64,000 bases of DNA from an uncultured Candidatus Saccharibacteria bacterium. GTDB lineage: Bacteria > Patescibacteriota > Minisyncoccia > Phycocordibacterales > GWA1-40-21. Below are positions 10,833 to 34,303 of the stretch, one piece after another. Location of the stretch: assembly GCA_964613715.1 (NCBI GenBank), contig CAZTJK010000003.1:7322-71321 (forward strand), read 5' to 3'. The notes below the pieces were generated by a model that was not told where the DNA came from, searched no databases, and was given only the letters and a program-made list of their open reading frames with translations. Positions within the stretch are counted from its first letter, which is position 1. Every line of letters starts with the position of its first letter. A program made the position numbers and the translations under genes.

Positions 10833-11684
10833 ATGAGAACCAACAGACCAACATCTCCGGGCCGCCGACACATGACATTTGTCACCTATCGCGGTGTGCT
10901 CACGGAATCAAAGCCGCTCAAAGCCCTCACGAAAGGCCAAAAAGGCCATTCCGGCCGCAATAACCGCGGACGCATCACCATGCGCCATCAGGGTGCCGGC
11001 CACAAGCAGGTATACCGCTTCGTGGACTTCATGTATGACAAAAAAGATATTCCAGCAACTGTGATGTCTGTGGAATACGATCCGTACCGCACCGGTTTCA
11101 TCGGCCTCGTAAACTATGCCGATGGCGAGAAGCGCTATACGCTCTTGCCGAAGGGTGTGAAGGCGGGCGACATGTTCCTGGTGTCCGAAAAGGCGGAGCT
11201 CAAGCCGGGCAACCGTATGCCACTCAAGAATATTCCGGTCGGTACCTTCGTGTATAACATCGAGATCAAAGTCGGCGGCGGTGCAAAGCTCGTCCGCTCG
11301 GCAGGATCATTCGCACAGATCGTCGCAAACGATGCAGGCTACGTGCATATCAAGATGCCATCGACCGAAGTCCGTAAGGTTCCGGAAAATGCATGGGCAT
11401 CGATCGGCAATGTTTCAAATGACGAGAACTGGCTCGTGAATATCGGCAAGGCAGGTCGTAGCCGCTGGATGGGTATTCGCCCGACGGTGCGCGGCTCGGT
11501 CATGAACCCGATGGATCACCCGTACGGCGGCGGCGAAGGCAAACAGGGCCGCGGCATGCGCTTTGCCAAGACCAAATGGGGTAAGCATGTCGGCAAAGGC
11601 CAGAAGTCGAGAACCCCGAAAAAGTACTCGAATTATCTGATCGTGAGCCGCAGAAAAGTAGGGAAGGCAAAGGACAATAAATAA
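10833..11684 (+). CDS. rplB: 50S ribosomal protein L2
   Basis: GRNNRGRITMRHQGAGHKQVYRF...MNPMDHPYGGGEGK matches uL2. Confidence 0.95.
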   Translation: MRTNRPTSPGRRHMTFVTYRGVLTESKPLKALTKGQKGHSGRNNRGRITMRHQGAGHKQVYRFVDFMYDKKDIPATVMSVEYDPYRTGFIGLVNYADGEKRYTLLPKGVKAGDMFLVSEKAELKPGNRMPLKNIPVGTFVYNIEIKVGGGAKLVRSAGSFAQIVANDAGYVHIKMPSTEVRKVPENAWASIGNVSNDENWLVNIGKAGRSRWMGIRPTVRGSVMNPMDHPYGGGEGKQGRGMRFAKTKWGKHVGKGQKSRTPKKYSNYLIVSRRKVGKAKDNK

Positions 11685-11696
11685 GTTTCAAATCTA

Positions 11697-11728
11697 AAGC
11701 GGCGCCTTACGGCGCCGCTTTACTTTTC
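11697..11728 (+). terminator. rho-independent terminator after rplB
   Basis: aaagcggcgccttacggcgccgctttacttttcc. It ends the S10 operon after L2. Confidence 0.6.
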
Positions 11729-11737
11729 CTGATTTTC

Positions 11738-11845
11738 TGCTACACTGCTTGCATAAGGCCAAAGACAACCGGCGGCATATGCAGAAGTCCGGTCGAGGTC
11801 CAAACGACACTCTCTGTCGGCCTTATCGGGTCGATTTTTTTATTT
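11738..11845 (+). promoter_or_regulatory. rplJ leader: an extended -10 (TGcTACACT) followed by a long-range helix and a U-tract (candidate L10-L12 autoregulatory attenuator)
   Basis: ataaggcc (11753-11760) pairs with ggccttat (11819-11826). The run tttttttatttc at 11834-11845 sits just before the rplJ RBS. Confidence 0.35.
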
Positions 11846-11866
11846 CAAAAATAAAAAGGAACAAGA

Positions 11867-12358
11867 ATGGCAATTACAAAAGAAAAGAAGAAAGAACTGG
11901 TAGCGGAAATCACAAAGGCACTCGCAGGCTCGAAGTCTGCAGTCTTTGTGAATTTCCACACGCTCAATGTCACGGACGAGCAGGCGATGCGCCGCGCTCT
12001 TCGTAAAGAAGGCGTCGGCTATTTGGTGGTGAGAAAAACGCTTGCCAAGCTCGCGCTTGCGGACGCAGGCATTGCTGGCACCATGCCGGAATTCGCCGGT
12101 GAGCTCGCACTTGTCTACGGCGATGATCTGACTGCTCCGGCGCGCGAATTCTACACGTTCCAGAAGAAATACAACGGCAATGTCAAAATTGTCGGTGGCA
12201 TCTTCGATGGAAAGTACATGAATATCGCGGAAATGACCGGTATCGCAGCCATCCCGTCCCAGCAGACCTTGTACGCACAGTTCGTCAATCTCATCAATTC
12301 CCCGATCCAGCGTTTCGCGGTCGTGCTTGATCAGATTGCAAAGACGAAGACAGTATAA
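11867..12358 (+). CDS. rplJ: 50S ribosomal protein L10
   Basis: [19 protein letters not shown]...[10 protein letters not shown] matches uL10. Confidence 0.9.
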
Positions 12359-12384
12359 TTTATCAACCTACACATAGAACAATC

Positions 12385-12780
12385 ATGGAAGAAAAGAAAG
12401 CAGTTGTGATTCCGGCGAAATTCGAAAAGCTTGTCGCCGAAATCGAAAAAATGTCAGTGATCGACCTCCACGAGCTCGTCAAAACGCTCGAGGAAAAGTT
12501 TGGCGTATCCGCAGCAGCAGTCGCAGTCGCGGGTCCTGCAGCAGGTGCAGCAGCGGCAGCGGAAGAGAAGACGGCCTTTACCGTCGAGCTCACCGATGCT
12601 GGCGCGCAGAAGATCGCCGTCATCAAGGTGGTCAAGGAAGCTCTCGCGCTCGGTCTTGCCGAAGCAAAGGGCATGGTAGATGCGGCTCCGAAGGTCCTCA
12701 AAGCGGACATGAAGAAGGAAGACGCGGAAAAGCTCAAAAAAGATATCGAAGCAGCGGGCGGAAAAGTTACCCTCAAGTAA
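12385..12780 (+). CDS. rplL: 50S ribosomal protein L7/L12
   Basis: An Ala/Pro hinge [20 protein letters not shown] is followed by the C-terminal domain [21 protein letters not shown]. Confidence 0.95.
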
Positions 12781-13619: not shown

Positions 13620-14300
13620 ATGGTTACCTGGGCTGATGTGTTGTCTGCTTCATTGCAGAATGTATGGCTTGGCGTCGCGAATTTCATCCCGACTCTTTTG
13701 GCCGCTTTGATCATAGCGATCATCGGATGGGTCGTCGGTGCTTTGGCATTCAAGCTGGTGTCACAGCTCGTCAAATTGGCGAGAGTTGACAATGCCCTCC
13801 GGGCAGCAGGCGTGGAACGCTTTGTTGAAAAGGCCGGTTTCCGCCTCAACAGCGGCATGTTTATCGGCAAGCTCGTTGAGTGGTTCTTCGTGGTCGTATT
13901 CTTGGTCGCGTCACTCGATGTCTTGGGCTTGACCCAGGTCACGGCATTCCTCAAGGATGTCGTTCTCGGCTACTTGCCGCAGGTCATCGTGGCAGTCCTT
14001 ATCATCCTCGTTGCGGCTATTGTCGCTGAGGCCATGCAGAAAGTCGTTTCCGGCACTGCAAAGGCTGCGGATATGAAGTCGGCGAATTTCGCTGGCAAGA
14101 TCACGAAATGGGCTATCTGGATCTTCGCGATCCTCGCCGCTGTCATGCAGCTCGGCATTGCCGTTTCGTTCATCAACACCCTCTTTACGGGCATTATCAT
14201 AGCGGTATCGCTTGCTCTCGGCCTTTCATTTGGCCTTGGCGGTCAGGATGCTGCTGCGAAGTACATCGAAAAGGTAAAAGGAGAAATCGCAGAGCGCTAA
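13620..14300 (+). CDS. membrane protein with two conserved TM-helix repeats (MscS-type N-terminal TM_helix-like)
   Basis: Two internally repeated hydrophobic modules, each followed by a charged segment. 226 aa. Confidence 0.45.
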   Translation: MVTWADVLSASLQNVWLGVANFIPTLLAALIIAIIGWVVGALAFKLVSQLVKLARVDNALRAAGVERFVEKAGFRLNSGMFIGKLVEWFFVVVFLVASLDVLGLTQVTAFLKDVVLGYLPQVIVAVLIILVAAIVAEAMQKVVSGTAKAADMKSANFAGKITKWAIWIFAILAAVMQLGIAVSFINTLFTGIIIAVSLALGLSFGLGGQDAAAKYIEKVKGEIAER

Positions 14301-14318
14301 GCTCCGGTTTCATCTCGA

Positions 14319-14350
14319 AAAAAGCCGAAACGTATCGTTTCGGCTTTTTT
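14319..14350 (+). terminator. rho-independent terminator
   Basis: aaaagccgaaacgtatcgtttcggctttttt. Confidence 0.6.
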
Positions 14351-14438
14351 CATTTTCATTTCGCGAACAATTACAAGGCATTTTCTGCGCATATTACTTT
14401 ACAAATATCATAAAGAGATTTCTTCTGCATATTTTTTA

Positions 14439-14465
14439 TTGACGTGCGTGGGAGAGGAGTATAAT
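14439..14465 (+). promoter_or_regulatory. candidate promoter TTGACG-15-TATAAT
   Basis: -35 at 14439-14444 and -10 at 14460-14465. The 15-bp spacer is short. Confidence 0.35.
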
Positions 14466-14637
14466 TGAAGATGAGGATTACGAGTAAAGCATTATCCTCG
14501 TAAAAACATTTTAAGGGAGACTAACTTTTGCTGCGCCGTGGCGTATCATCGAGGTCACCCACCTAGAATATCTAGGGTAATGCTTATCTGGTAATCCGTA
14601 AGAGTATCCGTCCGCATTCCGGACGGATTTTCTTTTT
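14466..14637 (+). ncRNA. candidate small RNA, or an RNA leader that is terminated, of unknown class
   Basis: The unit of about 170 nt is bounded by a promoter and an intrinsic terminator (atccgtccgcattccggacggat plus a T-run) and has no ORF of 60 aa or more. The downstream gene has its own extended -10. Confidence 0.25.
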
Positions 14638-14644
14638 CACTCCG

Positions 14645-14653
14645 TGGTATAAT
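14645..14653 (+). promoter_or_regulatory. extended -10 TGgTATAAT 7 nt upstream of the ATG at 14661
   Basis: tggtataatagccgcaATG. Confidence 0.4.
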
Positions 14654-14660
14654 AGCCGCA

Positions 14661-15080
14661 ATGCTCCAGAAAAAACTGCTATTCCTCTCCGTCATTTCCA
14701 TTATGGTGATCGCCGTAGTGCATATCGTTTCTCTGCGCCTGTCCTGGTACTATACGCATCCATGGATGGACATCGTAATCCATATTCTTGGCGGTTTTTG
14801 GGTCGCGGCGACGGCGCTCTGGATGGCACTTCGCTTCGGGCATATTGATACGATCGTCAATTATCGCCGTAAGGCCTTCTTCATCTCCTTTGCGGCGGTA
14901 TTTTTGGTCGGCATTGCATGGGAAATGTTCGAGCTGCTCTCCGGCAATACGTTCCTGCACTCGGCGAATTTCGCTACCGATTCGCTTTCCGATATTCTCG
15001 ACAATTTCATCGGCTGTTTTTTCGCCTTTTTGTATGCAATCAGGATGAAGCGTTGCCGGGACGGCTTTATCTGCGAATAA
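14661..15080 (+). CDS. hypothetical polytopic membrane protein
   Basis: 139 aa, 4 predicted TM segments, Trp-rich. Confidence 0.45.
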   Translation: MLQKKLLFLSVISIMVIAVVHIVSLRLSWYYTHPWMDIVIHILGGFWVAATALWMALRFGHIDTIVNYRRKAFFISFAAVFLVGIAWEMFELLSGNTFLHSANFATDSLSDILDNFIGCFFAFLYAIRMKRCRDGFICE

Positions 15081-16529: not shown

Positions 16530-16691
16530 ATGTCAGCAGTACAAGCAAAAAGTGATTATGTCATCGCTCACATCGACACAGCATGCGATGGTTGCGAGCG
16601 AACGATTCCTCAAGGTACGGAGCATATTGTGATCATTCATAATATTGGTGGGGTTGAAGTTCCGCTCCACTACTGCCTGTTGTGTAATTAA
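16530..16691 (+). CDS. small zinc-ribbon protein (CxxC...CxxC)
   Basis: A 53-aa ORF that the track missed because it is under 60 aa. It reads MSAVQAKSDYVIAHIDTACDGCERTIPQGTEH...PLHYCLLCN. An RBS aaaggag lies 8 nt upstream and a terminator follows directly. Confidence 0.45.
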   Translation: MSAVQAKSDYVIAHIDTACDGCERTIPQGTEHIVIIHNIGGVEVPLHYCLLCN

Positions 16692-16692
16692 A

Positions 16693-16722
16693 AACTGCGT
16701 CAAAAAAGATGCAGTTTTTTCT
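16693..16722 (+). terminator. rho-independent terminator
   Basis: ctgcgtcaaaaaagatgcagttttttc. Confidence 0.6.
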
Positions 16723-16771
16723 ATATACATAAAAAAACGAGGGACAGATCATCCCTCGTTTATAGAGCTGC

Positions 16772-17875
16772 CTAGACAGCGACCAATTCCTGTTTCTCTA
16801 GAAGCATATCAGCGGCCTTCTTCAGCGCTGCGTATGCCTCCGGCGTATGTGCTCCTGCCGCCTCAAGCATAGCCGGTAGCTCGGCCGGGTCCGAAAACAG
16901 CGTGAGCGCATGTTCCCAGATAACCTTGCTCGCCTCGATTTTTCTCGAGACTATCTTGAAGTGAGCCAGGCATTCCCGGAGATTAGGCGTTGTAAGCGCT
17001 TTAACCTTGCATTCTTCGCCGACAAGCCTGTCGTACGTTTCTTGCACAACCAAGTACCGTTTGATTTCATCCGGGTTCGGATAGCTCGCGAGCTTTTTCC
17101 GATAGTCCTCAAGCGTCTGCAGCGGCTCGAATTGTTTCTCGAGCTTGGCATAGAAGAGATTATGGCCTTTCATCCGTACCTCTTCATGCAGATCCTTGAA
17201 TCGATCATACGAGATCGTCCCAAGGAGCATTACGCATTTCTTCTGCGTATCCGCAAGCGGGATTTTTCTCTTGATTTCAAGAGCCTCAAGCCCAGTTTCT
17301 TTTTTCAGCACTCTTGCTTCAAGCCCCGGGTCATATCCGAGGATCCTGTCCCGGATTTTCTTGCACGCTTTTGCGGTCTTCGCTTTTTCAAGAAACGCAG
17401 CGAGTTCCGCATTGAATTTCCGAGCGCTTTCCTCTTTTGCTTTCGTATGACCTGGTGCCTGCTCGTAAATACGCTCGTATTGCCGCATGGTTGTTGCGGC
17501 AGCGAGCTTTGGCAAAAGATCATCCGACAATAACTTATCCCGCTTTTCTGTGGCGAATGACTGCCCACTCGAGAGATAGTCCGGATATTTCTTCCGGATT
17601 TTCTCAATATCTGCTGGCGTATCCGCTTTTTTTACTTCTCTGATAAGACGATCATCCAAGAGATCATCGCGTTTACGTTCCGTCTTCCGTCTGAAGCTTT
17701 CGTCCGGAGCTGTGTCGATAAGCGCCTGGCATTGTTCCGGAGTCTCGGCCGCTTCGAATTGCGACTTCAGATCCGGCTTCAGCCCGAGAGCGATCTCGAT
17801 TTCTCCCATGATGCCTTTGCCGTTACCGGCAGACATTGCGAGCGCGTGCAGAACCAGCTTATTGTAAGAAGACAT
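16772..17875 (-). CDS. hypothetical Lys/Glu-rich alpha-helical protein, no recognisable domain
   Basis: 368 aa. The start at 17875 has a strong RBS (aaggaggaagtgt ATG). The longer track ORF was rejected. Confidence 0.55.
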   Translation of the reverse strand: MSSYNKLVLHALAMSAGNGKGIMGEIEIALGLKPDLKSQFEAAETPEQCQALIDTAPDESFRRKTERKRDDLLDDRLIREVKKADTPADIEKIRKKYPDYLSSGQSFATEKRDKLLSDDLLPKLAAATTMRQYERIYEQAPGHTKAKEESARKFNAELAAFLEKAKTAKACKKIRDRILGYDPGLEARVLKKETGLEALEIKRKIPLADTQKKCVMLLGTISYDRFKDLHEEVRMKGHNLFYAKLEKQFEPLQTLEDYRKKLASYPNPDEIKRYLVVQETYDRLVGEECKVKALTTPNLRECLAHFKIVSRKIEASKVIWEHALTLFSDPAELPAMLEAAGAHTPEAYAALKKAADMLLEKQELVAV

Positions 17876-17977
17876 ACACTTCCTCCTTTGTGAATGAACT
17901 GCTGTTACTGATTTTGATACTACTCTTAGGCCGGCTCTTGTCAATGAATGAAAAAACCGCCTTTCGGCGGCATTTCT

Positions 17978-21637: not shown

Positions 21638-21816
21638 CACGAATAAATTTCCTGACAGAAATTTTTCGCGACCCCGGCTCGCTATTTTTGCCTTTGCTTC
21701 GTAAAACAAAAATAAAGCTGCGCCCGTTCGATTCCGACGCACGCAAAGCAGTTTGCGTGCTCCTGAATCTTACTTATAAAAATAGCCCGACACGAAGTCG
21801 GGCTATTTTTATATTG

Positions 21817-22219
21817 TGGAGATGGGCGGAATCGAACCGCCGTGCAAATGATTGTTACCGATGATTCTACAAAGTCTAGTCGAATTTTTTCGCCGAAGCG
21901 AATTTAAGTGGAAAGGCTATAAGACGACAAAATACCTTCCTGCCGATTCTCTACAGTTCATATCGCGTCGAGAATCCGCGACATATACTCTGAATTATAT
22001 TCCACCCCGGTCCGAGTAATCAGATGTGCTCGGGCGGGACGTCGCTTAGGCTATTGCGTAAGCGAAGGACGCGTTCGAAACTCCGAAATACGGAGAGACG
22101 AGAGACGCGACCTTGCGAGAAATGCTGTTTGCATTTGTCATCCTGACGGTTAAGGAGTGTACAGGGTGCTCCACTTTGCTCATGCGGGAACGGATCAGTT
22201 GTCTAGGCCGATCATCCCC
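21817..22219 (-). ncRNA. ssrA: tmRNA (SsrA)
   Basis: The 5' end GGGGATGATCGGCCTAGAC pairs with the 3' end ...GGTTCGATTCCGCCCATCTCCA (tRNA-like T-arm and acceptor). An internal tag ORF reads ...ANSISRKVASLVSPYFGVSNASFAYAIA* (stop at 22046). smpB sits immediately upstream and a terminator immediately downstream. Confidence 0.85.
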
Positions 22220-29197: not shown

Positions 29198-29686
29198 ATG
29201 ACAATACTCACCACAGCAGAAATCATTACTCGCATCGCGATCGCCGTCGGTCTCGGCGCTATCCTTGGTCTTGAGCGCACTTTTGCCGGCAAGCGCGCTG
29301 GCATGCGCACCTACGCCATGGTCGCGCTCGGCGCTGCGGTATTCATTATTATTGCGCAAAATGTCATCGCGGGGCTCGCATCTGCCGTCGGAGCAAATCC
29401 GCTCGGCGTTGCCGGTGCCATTATTTCTGGTATTGGCTTCATCGGTGCTGGTCTTCTGATTTTCCATGACAATAAGGTGACGGGTCTCACGACTGCTGCC
29501 GGCCTTTGGGTCTCTTCCGCAGTTGGCATGGCCTCGGGATTTGGTTTTTTTAGTCTTGCAACGATGACGACTGTCGCAGCGCTCATGGTATTCACCATGT
29601 TCTGGTTCATCGAGCACGGATTCCTCAAGTTTACGAGCCGCAAGAATTCGGATTATACCGACGAAGACGAGAACGGGAAGAAATAA
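29198..29686 (+). CDS. MgtC/SapB family membrane protein
   Basis: MTILTTAEIITRIAIAVGLGAILGLER...GMRTYAMVALGAAVF matches the MgtC N-terminal domain. Confidence 0.8.
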   Translation: MTILTTAEIITRIAIAVGLGAILGLERTFAGKRAGMRTYAMVALGAAVFIIIAQNVIAGLASAVGANPLGVAGAIISGIGFIGAGLLIFHDNKVTGLTTAAGLWVSSAVGMASGFGFFSLATMTTVAALMVFTMFWFIEHGFLKFTSRKNSDYTDEDENGKK

Positions 29687-29698
29687 AAAAATGAATCA

Positions 29699-29736
29699 AA
29701 AAAGCGCCGGCCGCGAAGCGGCCGGCGCTTTTCATT
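29699..29736. terminator. bidirectional terminator
   Basis: aaaagcgccggccgcgaagcggccggcgctttt. Confidence 0.6.
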
Positions 29737-34214: not shown

Positions 34215-34303
34215 CGGAGACGGTGGGATTCGAACCCACGAGACCTTTAAGGGGTCTACCTCGTTAGCAGTGAGGTGCTTTCGGCCAGCTCAGCCACGTC
34301 TCC
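34215..34303 (-). tRNA. tRNA-Ser (anticodon GCU)
   Basis: Manual fold: GGAGACG...GCTGAGCTGGCCGAAAGC...cctca-CTGCTAA-cgagg, a long variable arm, T-arm cgtgg-gttcgaatc-ccacc, 3' cgtctcc. 89 nt. Confidence 0.85.

What the first reader, a model, noticed from the sequence alone, without database searches (positions are those of the whole stretch)
14439..14637. Stand-alone promoter-to-terminator unit of about 170 nt with no ORF: a candidate small RNA
A TTGACG -35 (14439-14444) and a TATAAT -10 (14460-14465), with a short 15-bp spacer, are followed by about 140 nt of structured sequence. The structures include the hairpins gaggattacgagtaaagcattatcctc and ccacctagaatatctagggt. The unit ends at a strong intrinsic terminator (atccgtccgcattccggacggat plus tttctttttc, 14606-14637). 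The only reading frame inside is a 10-codon peptide (MRITSKALSS). The downstream gene at 14661 has its own extended -10 immediately after the terminator. This RNA is therefore unlikely to be simply that gene's leader.
Basis: seen in the sequence. Interest (0 to 1): 0.55.

Follow-up and report, generated by a model that had tools for sequence, protein, structure and literature searches.

The report
Miniature 6S-like RNA gene in Paceibacteria
This is a real, stand-alone small RNA gene conserved across a whole class of ultra-small (CPR) bacteria; it most likely encodes a shortened 6S RNA, the decoy that mimics an open promoter and sequesters RNA polymerase, and the standard RNA-family library misses it at its curated threshold.

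Summary
TTGACG/TATAAT (15-nt spacer), a 126-nt rod-shaped fold (14474-14599), an intrinsic terminator (14606-14637) and no conserved ORF are all present.

The unit is conserved, on the + strand, in 77 of 82 Paceibacteria genome loci. It is also present in about 78 of 80 metagenome loci found through its core motif. The -10 box sits 4-12 nt before the first stem and a terminator follows the last stem. Covariation is strong: 94% of cells paired, 34 of 39 pairs with compensatory changes, and slid controls near 40%.

The architecture is closing stem, A/U-rich central bubble of about 18 nt per strand, then apical stem. The invariant blocks (GGG...CCCACCU plus a hairpin in the 3' bubble strand) are those of 6S RNA. 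Rfam's 6S model is the only biologically plausible match in the three searches where it was significant. It aligns exactly on the RNA in the window (20 bits) and two close relatives (30-31 bits, E 1e-4 locally), but stays below the 46.4-bit threshold. It is not significant in a distant member.

Best reading: a shortened, divergent 6S RNA (confidence about 0.68). It is a new member of a known kind, of moderate interest. Binding to polymerase is inferred, not shown.

The parts
14439..14444 (+). -35-like hexamer TTGACG
   Evidence: Read. It lies 15 nt before the -10 box. TTGACx at 15-16 nt spacing recurs in close relatives.
14460..14465 (+). -10 hexamer TATAAT; predicted transcription start about 14471-14474
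   Evidence: Read. A TAnnnT box ends 4-12 nt before the first paired base in 65 of 71 family members. The start site is inferred from spacing.
14474..14599 (+). Core of the RNA: a 126-nt rod (closing stem, central bubble, apical arm)
   Evidence: Covariance-model hit of 135 bits (R1) and 111 bits (R2); the antisense strand scores only 38 bits. The Rfam 6S model aligns to 14488-14585 at 20.2 bits.
14474..14484 (+). Outer closing stem, 5' strand; pairs with 14588-14598
   Evidence: Helix 1: 11 pairs, all with compensatory changes, 94.5% of cells paired.
14487..14495 (+). Inner closing stem (P2), 5' strand; pairs with 14577-14585. This is the stem a product RNA would unwind.
   Evidence: Helix 2: 9 of 9 pairs with compensatory changes. 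It aligns to CuGAgCC / GGuUCaA of the Rfam 6S consensus.
14496..14514 (+). 5' strand of the central bubble (CCUCGUAAAAACAUUUUAA), A/U-rich; predicted template strand for product RNA
   Evidence: It is left unpaired in the conserved structure; its length in the family is 16-23 nt. It aligns to the 16-nt unpaired stretch of the 6S model. The template role is inferred.
14515..14560 (+). Apical arm: GGG(14515-17)/CCC(14558-60), an A-A mismatch, GACU/GGUC, an internal loop, and a hairpin with a CGUG loop (14537-40)
   Evidence: Helices 3-5 are 92-100% paired with many compensatory changes. At 46 nt, this is the shortest arm in the family (range 46-150, median 63).
14561..14576 (+). 3' strand of the central bubble: invariant ACCU, then the hairpin CCUAG(14562-66)/CUAGG(14572-76)
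   Evidence: CCCAC is invariant in the MAFFT alignment and the CCCACCUAG block is conserved in at least 60-90% of 77 sequences. Helix 6 is 96.9% paired and includes CG-to-UA/GC switches. It aligns to CCCACCUgg of the 6S model.
14577..14598 (+). 3' strands of the inner and outer closing stems
   Evidence: Partners of 14474-14495.
14606..14637 (+). Intrinsic terminator (9-bp stem, 6 G-C pairs, followed by UUUUCUUUUUC)
   Evidence: Found by the scan. A hairpin plus U-run follows the rod in at least 57 of 71 members, with no sequence conservation.
14645..14663 (+). Context, not part of the RNA: extended -10 TGgTATAAT (14645-14653) and ATG 14661 of the 139-aa gene, a leaderless design
   Evidence: Read. 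The same pattern of a -10 box followed 6-9 nt later by ATG appears after the terminator in many relatives.

Best explanation
The unit is the gene for a shortened, divergent 6S RNA (ssrS-type) of a Paceibacteria (Patescibacteria/CPR) bacterium.

It is transcribed from its own sigma-70-type promoter and ends at its own intrinsic terminator. The RNA folds into a rod in which two helical arms flank a large, permanently open central bubble. By analogy with 6S RNA of E. coli and B. subtilis, the following steps are inferred and not shown here:

1. The rod mimics an open promoter and occupies the active-site cleft of the housekeeping RNA polymerase holoenzyme, damping transcription when nutrients are scarce.
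2. When nucleotides return, the polymerase copies the 5' bubble strand and the adjacent inner closing stem into a short product RNA. The predicted start is near the U of CCUCGU, about 14501.
3. The product RNA displaces the 3' strand of that stem.
4. The RNA refolds around the conserved CCUAG/CUAGG hairpin of the 3' bubble strand, and the polymerase is released.

Shown here: the conserved stand-alone gene, its strand, its covarying rod-and-bubble structure, and sequence and structure similarity to the 6S model. Inferred: polymerase binding, product-RNA synthesis and physiological role.
For: 1. Conservation. Model R2 finds one + strand copy in 77 of 82 Paceibacteria genome loci. It also confirms about 78 of 80 metagenome loci found through the core motif.
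2. Stand-alone unit. The -10 box lies 4-12 nt upstream in 65 of 71 members, and a terminator follows in at least 57 of 71.
3. Structure. 94.3% of cells are paired; 34 of 39 pairs have compensatory changes; 583 compensatory cells were counted against 142 +/- 14 in shuffles; slid controls gave 36-44%. A MAFFT-only alignment, not fitted to the structure, gave 17 of 24 pairs with compensatory changes.
4. Strand. Many G-U pairs are present and the antisense score is far lower, so this is an RNA read from the + strand.
5. 6S-type architecture. The stems flank unpaired strands of median 18 nt each.
6. Rfam similarity. RF00013 is the only biologically plausible hit on the rod in the three searches where it was significant. 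It lies exactly on the RNA: window 20.2 bits, E 0.02; L010 31.0 bits, E 0.017 in a 62-kb search; L009 29.8 bits, aligned end to end with E 1.1e-4 locally.
7. Shared invariant blocks. The family's invariant blocks (GGG, CCCACCU) are the capitalised blocks of the 6S consensus.
8. E. coli ssrS has the same CACCU-hairpin-GGGUU motif in its 3' bubble strand.
9. A 78-nt truncated B. subtilis 6S-1 still binds polymerase, templates product RNA and is released (PMC8876501). Short arms are therefore compatible with function.
Against: 1. The Rfam score is below the curated gathering threshold of 46.4 bits in every member tested.
2. In a distant member (L069) the 6S hit is only 12 bits, E 1.8. Eleven of 13 loci gave no 6S hit at E <= 10. 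The statistical link to 6S therefore rests on the window's own subclade.
3. My family models R1 and R2 do not retrieve E. coli 6S RNA.
4. The core is 126 nt (family median 137), against about 200 nt for described 6S RNAs (PMC8876501).
5. The RNA keeps a conserved position upstream of a DUF2238-like gene and a beta-CASP ribonuclease gene. That could point to a locus-specific role.
6. There is no expression or binding evidence.
Confidence: 0.68

Rival explanations
1. It is a new class of trans-acting structured small RNA that is specific to Paceibacteria and not homologous to 6S. On this reading the rod-with-bubble shape and the short GGG/CCCACCU blocks are convergent or coincidental, and its partner would be some other protein or RNA.
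For: All Rfam 6S scores are sub-threshold. The hit in a distant member is not significant. The family models do not find E. coli 6S. The RNA is unusually short.
Against: Three members independently place the 6S model exactly on the RNA, one of them end to end with E 1e-4. The family's invariant nucleotides coincide with the most conserved 6S positions. Bubble size and the 3'-bubble hairpin match known 6S features (PMC8876501). No other Rfam family fits.
Confidence: 0.17
2. It is a cis-acting leader or attenuator. The rod senses a signal, and the terminator controls read-through into the downstream DUF2238-like and beta-CASP ribonuclease genes.
For: The RNA is on the same strand and immediately upstream of these genes in most loci: 77 of 82 loci anchored on the ribonuclease, and 37 of 54 loci anchored on the RNA. 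It ends in a terminator.
Against: The downstream gene has its own extended -10 box 7 nt before its ATG, and the same design recurs in relatives. The terminator sequence is not conserved and is separated from the rod by a linker, so no conserved anti-terminator pairing is visible. The downstream gene varies: it is the 139-aa gene, the ribonuclease, or neither. One contig carries two tandem copies, each with its own terminator. Rfam points to a gene class, not a cis-regulatory class.
Confidence: 0.1
3. It is a DNA-level element, such as a protein-binding palindrome or a mobile-element end, or it is a chance inverted repeat rather than an RNA.
For: The sequence is a long imperfect inverted repeat, and the antisense strand also folds well (z = -5.3).
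Against: G-U pairs are frequent and would be C-A mismatches on the other strand. The model scores 111-135 bits on the + strand against 34-38 on the - strand. The promoter and terminator have a conserved orientation. There is a single copy per locus in a fixed syntenic position, which is not a mobile-element pattern.
Confidence: 0.03

Closest known systems
6S RNA / SsrS (Rfam RF00013), e.g. E. coli ssrS and B. subtilis 6S-1
   Same: Both are stand-alone genes. Both form a rod with a closing stem, a large central bubble and an apical stem. The 5' bubble strand is A/U-rich and about 16-18 nt long. GGG...CCC flanks the apical side of the bubble and is followed by ACCU. The 3' bubble strand forms a small hairpin that overlaps the top of the inner closing stem. 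The Rfam model aligns on exactly these elements, and E. coli ssrS shows the same motif.
   Different: This RNA is 126 nt (family median 137) rather than about 185-200 nt. Relative to the model, about 12 nt per strand are missing from the outer closing stem and most of the apical arm is missing. It scores 20-31 bits against a threshold of 46.4. It is made as a primary transcript with an appended intrinsic terminator hairpin. It is linked to a DUF2238-like gene and a beta-CASP ribonuclease gene rather than to the fau/ygfA gene next to E. coli ssrS.
Engineered truncated 6S-1 RNAs (6S78, 6S82cp) of B. subtilis (PMC8876501)
   Same: Both consist of a central bubble flanked by short helical arms. 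The engineered versions still bind holoenzyme, template product RNA and are released. This shows that a minimal 6S can work.
   Different: Those are laboratory constructs with about 10-fold lower affinity. This would be a natural, conserved short form, and it keeps an apical arm equivalent to about 20 base pairs.
Ms1 RNA of actinobacteria (6S-like RNA that binds RNA polymerase core; PMC9130861)
   Same: Both are rod-like, polymerase-associated small RNAs found in a lineage where a canonical 6S is not detected.
   Different: There was no Rfam hit to any family other than 6S on the rod. Ms1 is much longer, and the conserved blocks here are those of 6S.

Membership tests
6S RNA (RF00013) | Score at or above Rfam's curated gathering threshold (46.4 bits) | tested here: not met
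   Scores were: window 20.2 bits, L010 31.0 and L009 29.8, L069 12.0. None of 20 further loci reached the threshold. E-values are nevertheless significant for L009 (1.1e-4 locally) and L010 (0.017 in 62 kb).
6S RNA (RF00013) | Rod-shaped secondary structure: closing stem, large central bubble, apical stem | tested here: met
   Six covarying helices flank unpaired strands of median 18 nt each. The window's minimum-free-energy fold is a rod.
6S RNA (RF00013) | Conserved nucleotides around the bubble (GGG...CCC-ACCU; inner closing stem CuGAgCC/GGuUCaA) | tested here: met
   GGG and CCCAC are invariant in this family and CCU is nearly so. They align to the capitalised positions of the model consensus with high posterior probability.
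6S RNA (RF00013) | Hairpin-forming 3' bubble strand that can compete with the inner closing stem (basis of product-RNA-induced refolding) | tested here: met
   The CCUAG/CUAGG hairpin is 96.9% paired and shows CG-to-UA/GC switches. Its 3' half shares two G residues with the GGGUAAU strand of the inner stem (read from the sequence). The comparable features in E. coli and B. subtilis are described in PMC8876501. Its role in refolding is inferred.
6S RNA (RF00013) | Length of about 160-200 nt | tested here: not met
   The core is 126 nt, or 166 nt with the terminator. The family range is 113-227 nt, median 137.
6S RNA (RF00013) | Reciprocal detection: a model of this family retrieves a bona fide 6S RNA | tested here: not met
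   R1 and R2 give no hit on E. coli ssrS; the best scores, 5.9 and 7.3 bits, lie elsewhere in the locus. E. coli is phylogenetically remote, and no closer 6S sequence could be loaded.
6S RNA (RF00013) | Binds the housekeeping sigma holoenzyme and templates short product RNAs | not testable with these tools
   This requires gel-shift and in vitro transcription assays.
6S RNA (RF00013) | Abundant, discrete transcript | not testable with these tools
   No transcriptome data were available. The conserved promoter and terminator are indirect evidence only.
Riboswitch / attenuator leader | Constant association with one regulated downstream gene that lacks its own promoter | tested here: not met
   The downstream gene varies or is absent. 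A -10 box sits 6-9 nt before the downstream ATG in the window and in many relatives.
Riboswitch / attenuator leader | Conserved alternative pairing between the sensor and the terminator (anti-terminator) | not tested
   No formal test was run. By eye, the terminators differ completely in sequence and are separated from the rod by a 5-9 nt linker.
SRP RNA, RNase P RNA, tmRNA and other housekeeping RNAs | Match to the corresponding Rfam models | tested here: not met
   No such hits were found on 14455-14645 even at E <= 10. The tmRNA lies elsewhere in the window, at 21814-22219.

The most novel reading that the evidence does not exclude
The Paceibacteria RNA is a natural minimal polymerase decoy that is functionally coupled to its conserved neighbours. 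For example, the adjacent TTHA0252-like beta-CASP ribonuclease might trim its terminator hairpin or control its turnover, as RNase J1 does for 6S RNAs in B. subtilis (PMC10578484). Alternatively, it is not a 6S at all, but a new class-wide structured RNA with an unknown partner in organisms that otherwise lack a detectable 6S.
Probability: 0.2. Interest if true: 0.6.

Novelty: new member of a known kind. Interest (0 to 1): 0.4.

Why it matters
6S RNA is described as present in nearly all bacteria (PMC8414754). I found no paper in the searchable library that reports it for Patescibacteria/CPR. Rfam's curated threshold misses this family in every locus tested.

If the assignment holds, these ultra-small, genome-reduced, probably host-dependent bacteria keep a global regulator of RNA polymerase. 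That fits a lifestyle with long starvation phases.

They would also keep it in a naturally shortened form, with a core of 113-137 nt. This would support in vivo what truncation experiments showed in vitro (PMC8876501).

The alignment of about 150 sequences and the covariance model made here could be used to annotate the gene across the class. They could also extend the Rfam 6S family.

Tried and rejected
- **Rfam at gathering threshold.** Nothing was found at the locus, either in the window or in 20 relatives.
- **Rfam on the whole window at E <= 0.5.** No other 6S candidate appeared.
- **Other RNA classes.** SRP RNA, RNase P RNA, Y RNA and riboswitch classes gave no hits at E <= 10. The PyrR, ctRNA and leader hits are terminator-driven noise.
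- **Coding potential.** The 10-codon ORF is not conserved.
It has no covariation support.
- **Reciprocal search of E. coli ssrS with my models.** The result was negative.
- **Obligatory link to the beta-CASP gene.** This is rejected: 37 of 54 RNA-anchored loci have the gene downstream within 1.5 kb, and about 6 have neither usual neighbour.
- **Key papers.** Wehner et al. 2014 and Barrick et al. 2005 could not be read because they are not held. I therefore cannot exclude that an OD1 or TM7 6S candidate was listed there.
- **Extension of the inner closing stem by the 5' CUAG motif.** This was inspected only by eye. Several members break it while keeping the 3' hairpin, so it was not adopted.

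Full report
**What is in the window**

- TTGACG is at 14439-14444.
- After a 15-nt spacer, TATAAT is at 14460-14465.
- About 140 nt of structured sequence follows.
- An intrinsic terminator has its stem at 14606-14628 and a T-run to 14637.

The promoter scanner did not list the promoter only because it demands a 16-18 nt spacer. The upstream gene (13620-14300, a membrane protein with an MscS-type helix) has its own terminator at 14317-14351. The downstream 139-aa gene starts at ATG 14661, only 7 nt after an extended -10 box (TGgTATAAT, 14645-14653). It is therefore effectively leaderless.

The predicted 166-nt transcript folds at -62.4 kcal/mol (z = -5.7; 0 of 200 shuffles as good). The fold is one long rod plus the terminator hairpin.

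**Organism and synteny**

The neighbouring 452-aa protein is a beta-CASP metallo-beta-lactamase ribonuclease. Its closest solved relative is Thermus TTHA0252 (E 3e-73). Its homologues are labelled Patescibacteria, Paceibacterota, Taylorbacteria or Minisyncoccia.

In the two nearest long contigs, the gene order L10, L7/L12, hypothetical gene, MscS-like gene, gap, beta-CASP, L20, L35, IF3 is kept. The gap contains a clear homologue of the RNA, with the same promoter and a different terminator. The 139-aa gene is missing there.

**A conserved RNA family**

- nhmmer with the window sequence found the element upstream of the beta-CASP gene in 37 further genome loci.
- A covariance model built from seven close sequences (R1) found it in about 71 loci.
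- A model built from 49 sequences (R2) found it in 77 of 82 loci. All hits are on the strand of the beta-CASP gene, at E <= 4.6e-6.
R2 confirmed about 78 of the 80 loci returned.

The window holds one copy, at 14474-14599. It scores 135 bits (R1) and 111 bits (R2); the antisense strand scores 38 bits.

**A stand-alone transcription unit**

- In 65 of 71 members, a TAnnnT box (mostly TATAAT, TATACT or TACAAT) ends 4-12 nt before the first paired base.
- A hairpin plus U-run follows the last paired base in at least 57 of 71 members, by a crude script that visibly misses some.
- Terminator sequences are not conserved.
- After the terminator, many loci show another -10 box 6-9 nt before the next ATG.
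- The 10-codon ORF is not conserved.

**Structure**

On the 77-sequence alignment:
- 94.3% of cells form standard pairs, against 72.6% in shuffles and 36-44% when partners are slid;
- 34 of 39 pairs show changes on both sides;
- there are 583 compensatory cells, against 142 +/- 14 in shuffles.

That alignment is fitted to the model. An independent MAFFT alignment folded by RNAalifold gave 17 of 24 pairs with compensatory changes. Frequent G-U pairs fix the strand.

The conserved fold has these parts:
- an outer closing stem (14474-84 with 14588-98);
- an inner closing stem (14487-95 with 14577-85);
- an unpaired, A/U-rich 5' bubble strand (14496-14514);
- an apical arm (14515-14560), which begins with invariant GGG/CCC around an A-A mismatch and ends in a CGUG or CUUG tetraloop;
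- a 3' bubble strand (14561-76), with invariant ACCU and a covarying hairpin CCUAG/CUAGG.

Across the family, the bubble strands are 16-23 and 15-23 nt long, the apical arm is 46-150 nt, and the whole core is 113-227 nt with a median of 137. The window has the shortest apical arm. The second is the 3'-bubble hairpin.

**Identity**

Nothing reaches an Rfam gathering score here. In E-value mode, the only biologically plausible match on the rod is 6S RNA (RF00013).
- Window: 14488-14585, 20.2 bits, E 0.02.
- L010: 31.0 bits, E 0.017 in a 62-kb search against all families. L009: 29.8 bits. Both hits lie exactly on the RNA.
- L009 alone aligns to the model end to end (positions 1-187) with E 1.1e-4.

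The alignments place the following elements on the corresponding model elements, with high posterior probability:
- the inner closing stem;
- the 16-nt unpaired 5' strand;
- GGGAGnnn...nnnCACCC;
- ACCU and the 3' strand.

The missing model parts are about 12 nt per strand of the outer stem and most of the apical arm. The family's invariant residues are the capitalised residues of the 6S consensus. E. coli ssrS, fetched for comparison, has CACCUUGAACCAAGGGUU where the window has CACCUAGAAUAUCUAGGGUA.

According to PMC8876501:
- the 3' bubble strand is the '-10-like' element;
- product-RNA synthesis starts in the 5' bubble strand (U44 in E. coli, nt 40 in B. subtilis);
- a 3'-bubble hairpin forms in free B. 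subtilis 6S-1, and in E. coli 6S bound to product RNA.

The same paper shows that 78-nt truncated 6S-1 RNAs still complete the 6S cycle in vitro.

**Limits of the 6S assignment**

- All scores are below 46.4 bits.
- Only the window's own subclade gives significant 6S hits. Eleven other loci gave none at E <= 10, and L069 gave 12 bits, E 1.8.
- R1 and R2 do not recover E. coli 6S.

I therefore rate the 6S reading at about 0.68. A non-homologous new small RNA is rated at about 0.17.

**Relation to neighbours**

In ribonuclease-anchored loci, the distance from the RNA to the beta-CASP gene is bimodal.
- It is 23-254 nt in 17 loci.
- It is 407-884 nt in 54 loci, where a homologue of the 139-aa gene lies in between. 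That gene has precomputed Pfam DUF2238.

In RNA-anchored metagenome loci with at least 1.2 kb downstream:
- 37 of 54 have the beta-CASP gene downstream within 1.5 kb;
- 30 have the 139-aa homologue directly downstream;
- about 6 have neither.

The upstream MscS-like gene is kept only in the eight closest loci. The linkage is therefore strong but not obligatory. Together with the separate downstream promoters, this argues against a cis-regulatory leader.

The linkage might still be functional. In B. subtilis, the beta-CASP enzyme RNase J1 matures and degrades 6S RNAs (PMC10578484). That idea is speculation.

**Novelty**

6S RNA is a well-known class that is said to occur in nearly all bacteria (PMC8414754). 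I found no paper linking it to Patescibacteria/CPR. The two key survey papers are not held.

The finding is best filed as a new, shortened and divergent member of a known kind. It is a solid new gene annotation for a whole class of bacteria and is of moderate interest.

Noticed in passing
window 14645-14663: The 139-aa gene has an extended -10 box (TGgTATAAT) only 7 nt before its ATG, which is a leaderless design. The same pattern of a -10 box followed 6-9 nt later by ATG appears after the RNA's terminator in many relatives (for example L011, L012, L017, L050, L078). Leaderless mRNAs may therefore be common in this class.
   Followed up: partly
L143 285-413 and 593-713 (minus strand): One metagenome contig carries two tandem copies of the RNA about 180 nt apart. 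Each has its own -10-like box and terminator. The first copy carries an insertion in the closing arm. This is reminiscent of the paired 6S genes of Bacillus.
   Followed up: partly
window 16530-17944: A 53-aa ORF with two CxxC pairs (+ strand) and a 390-aa ORF without any Pfam match (- strand) sit between the beta-CASP gene and rplT. In L003 and L004, the beta-CASP gene is followed directly by rplT-rpmI-infC, so this looks like a lineage-specific insertion.
   Followed up: no
window 10833-12780: rplB (L2) stands apart from the usual S10 operon, just upstream of rplJ-rplL. The same arrangement is seen in L004.
   Followed up: no
window 14439-14465 and relatives: The unusually short 15-nt spacer between TTGACx and TATAAT is conserved in the closest relatives (L003, L004, L005, L009, L022). 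More distant members have 16 nt. A G-rich 'gGaG' stretch precedes the -10 box in many of them.
   Followed up: partly
L030 2235-2461, L027 2265-2445, L031 2648-2821: Some family members carry insertions of 50-100 nt in the apical arm, giving cores of up to 227 nt. The arm length varies more than three-fold, while the bubble and its flanks stay constant.
   Followed up: no
L033 2748-2901: A sub-threshold T-box leader match (52.1 bits, E 1.6e-8, threshold 93) lies downstream of the beta-CASP gene in one relative.
   Followed up: no
window 21814-22219 (minus strand): A tmRNA gene scores 77.3 bits. Eight tRNA genes are also present elsewhere in the window, including an 89-nt long-arm tRNA at 34215-34303.
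   Followed up: no
window 29648-29731: A sub-threshold match to the Rhizobiales sRNA Atu_C9 (27.2 bits, E 0.0037) covers only the 3' part of the model. It is probably a terminator-driven match.
   Followed up: no
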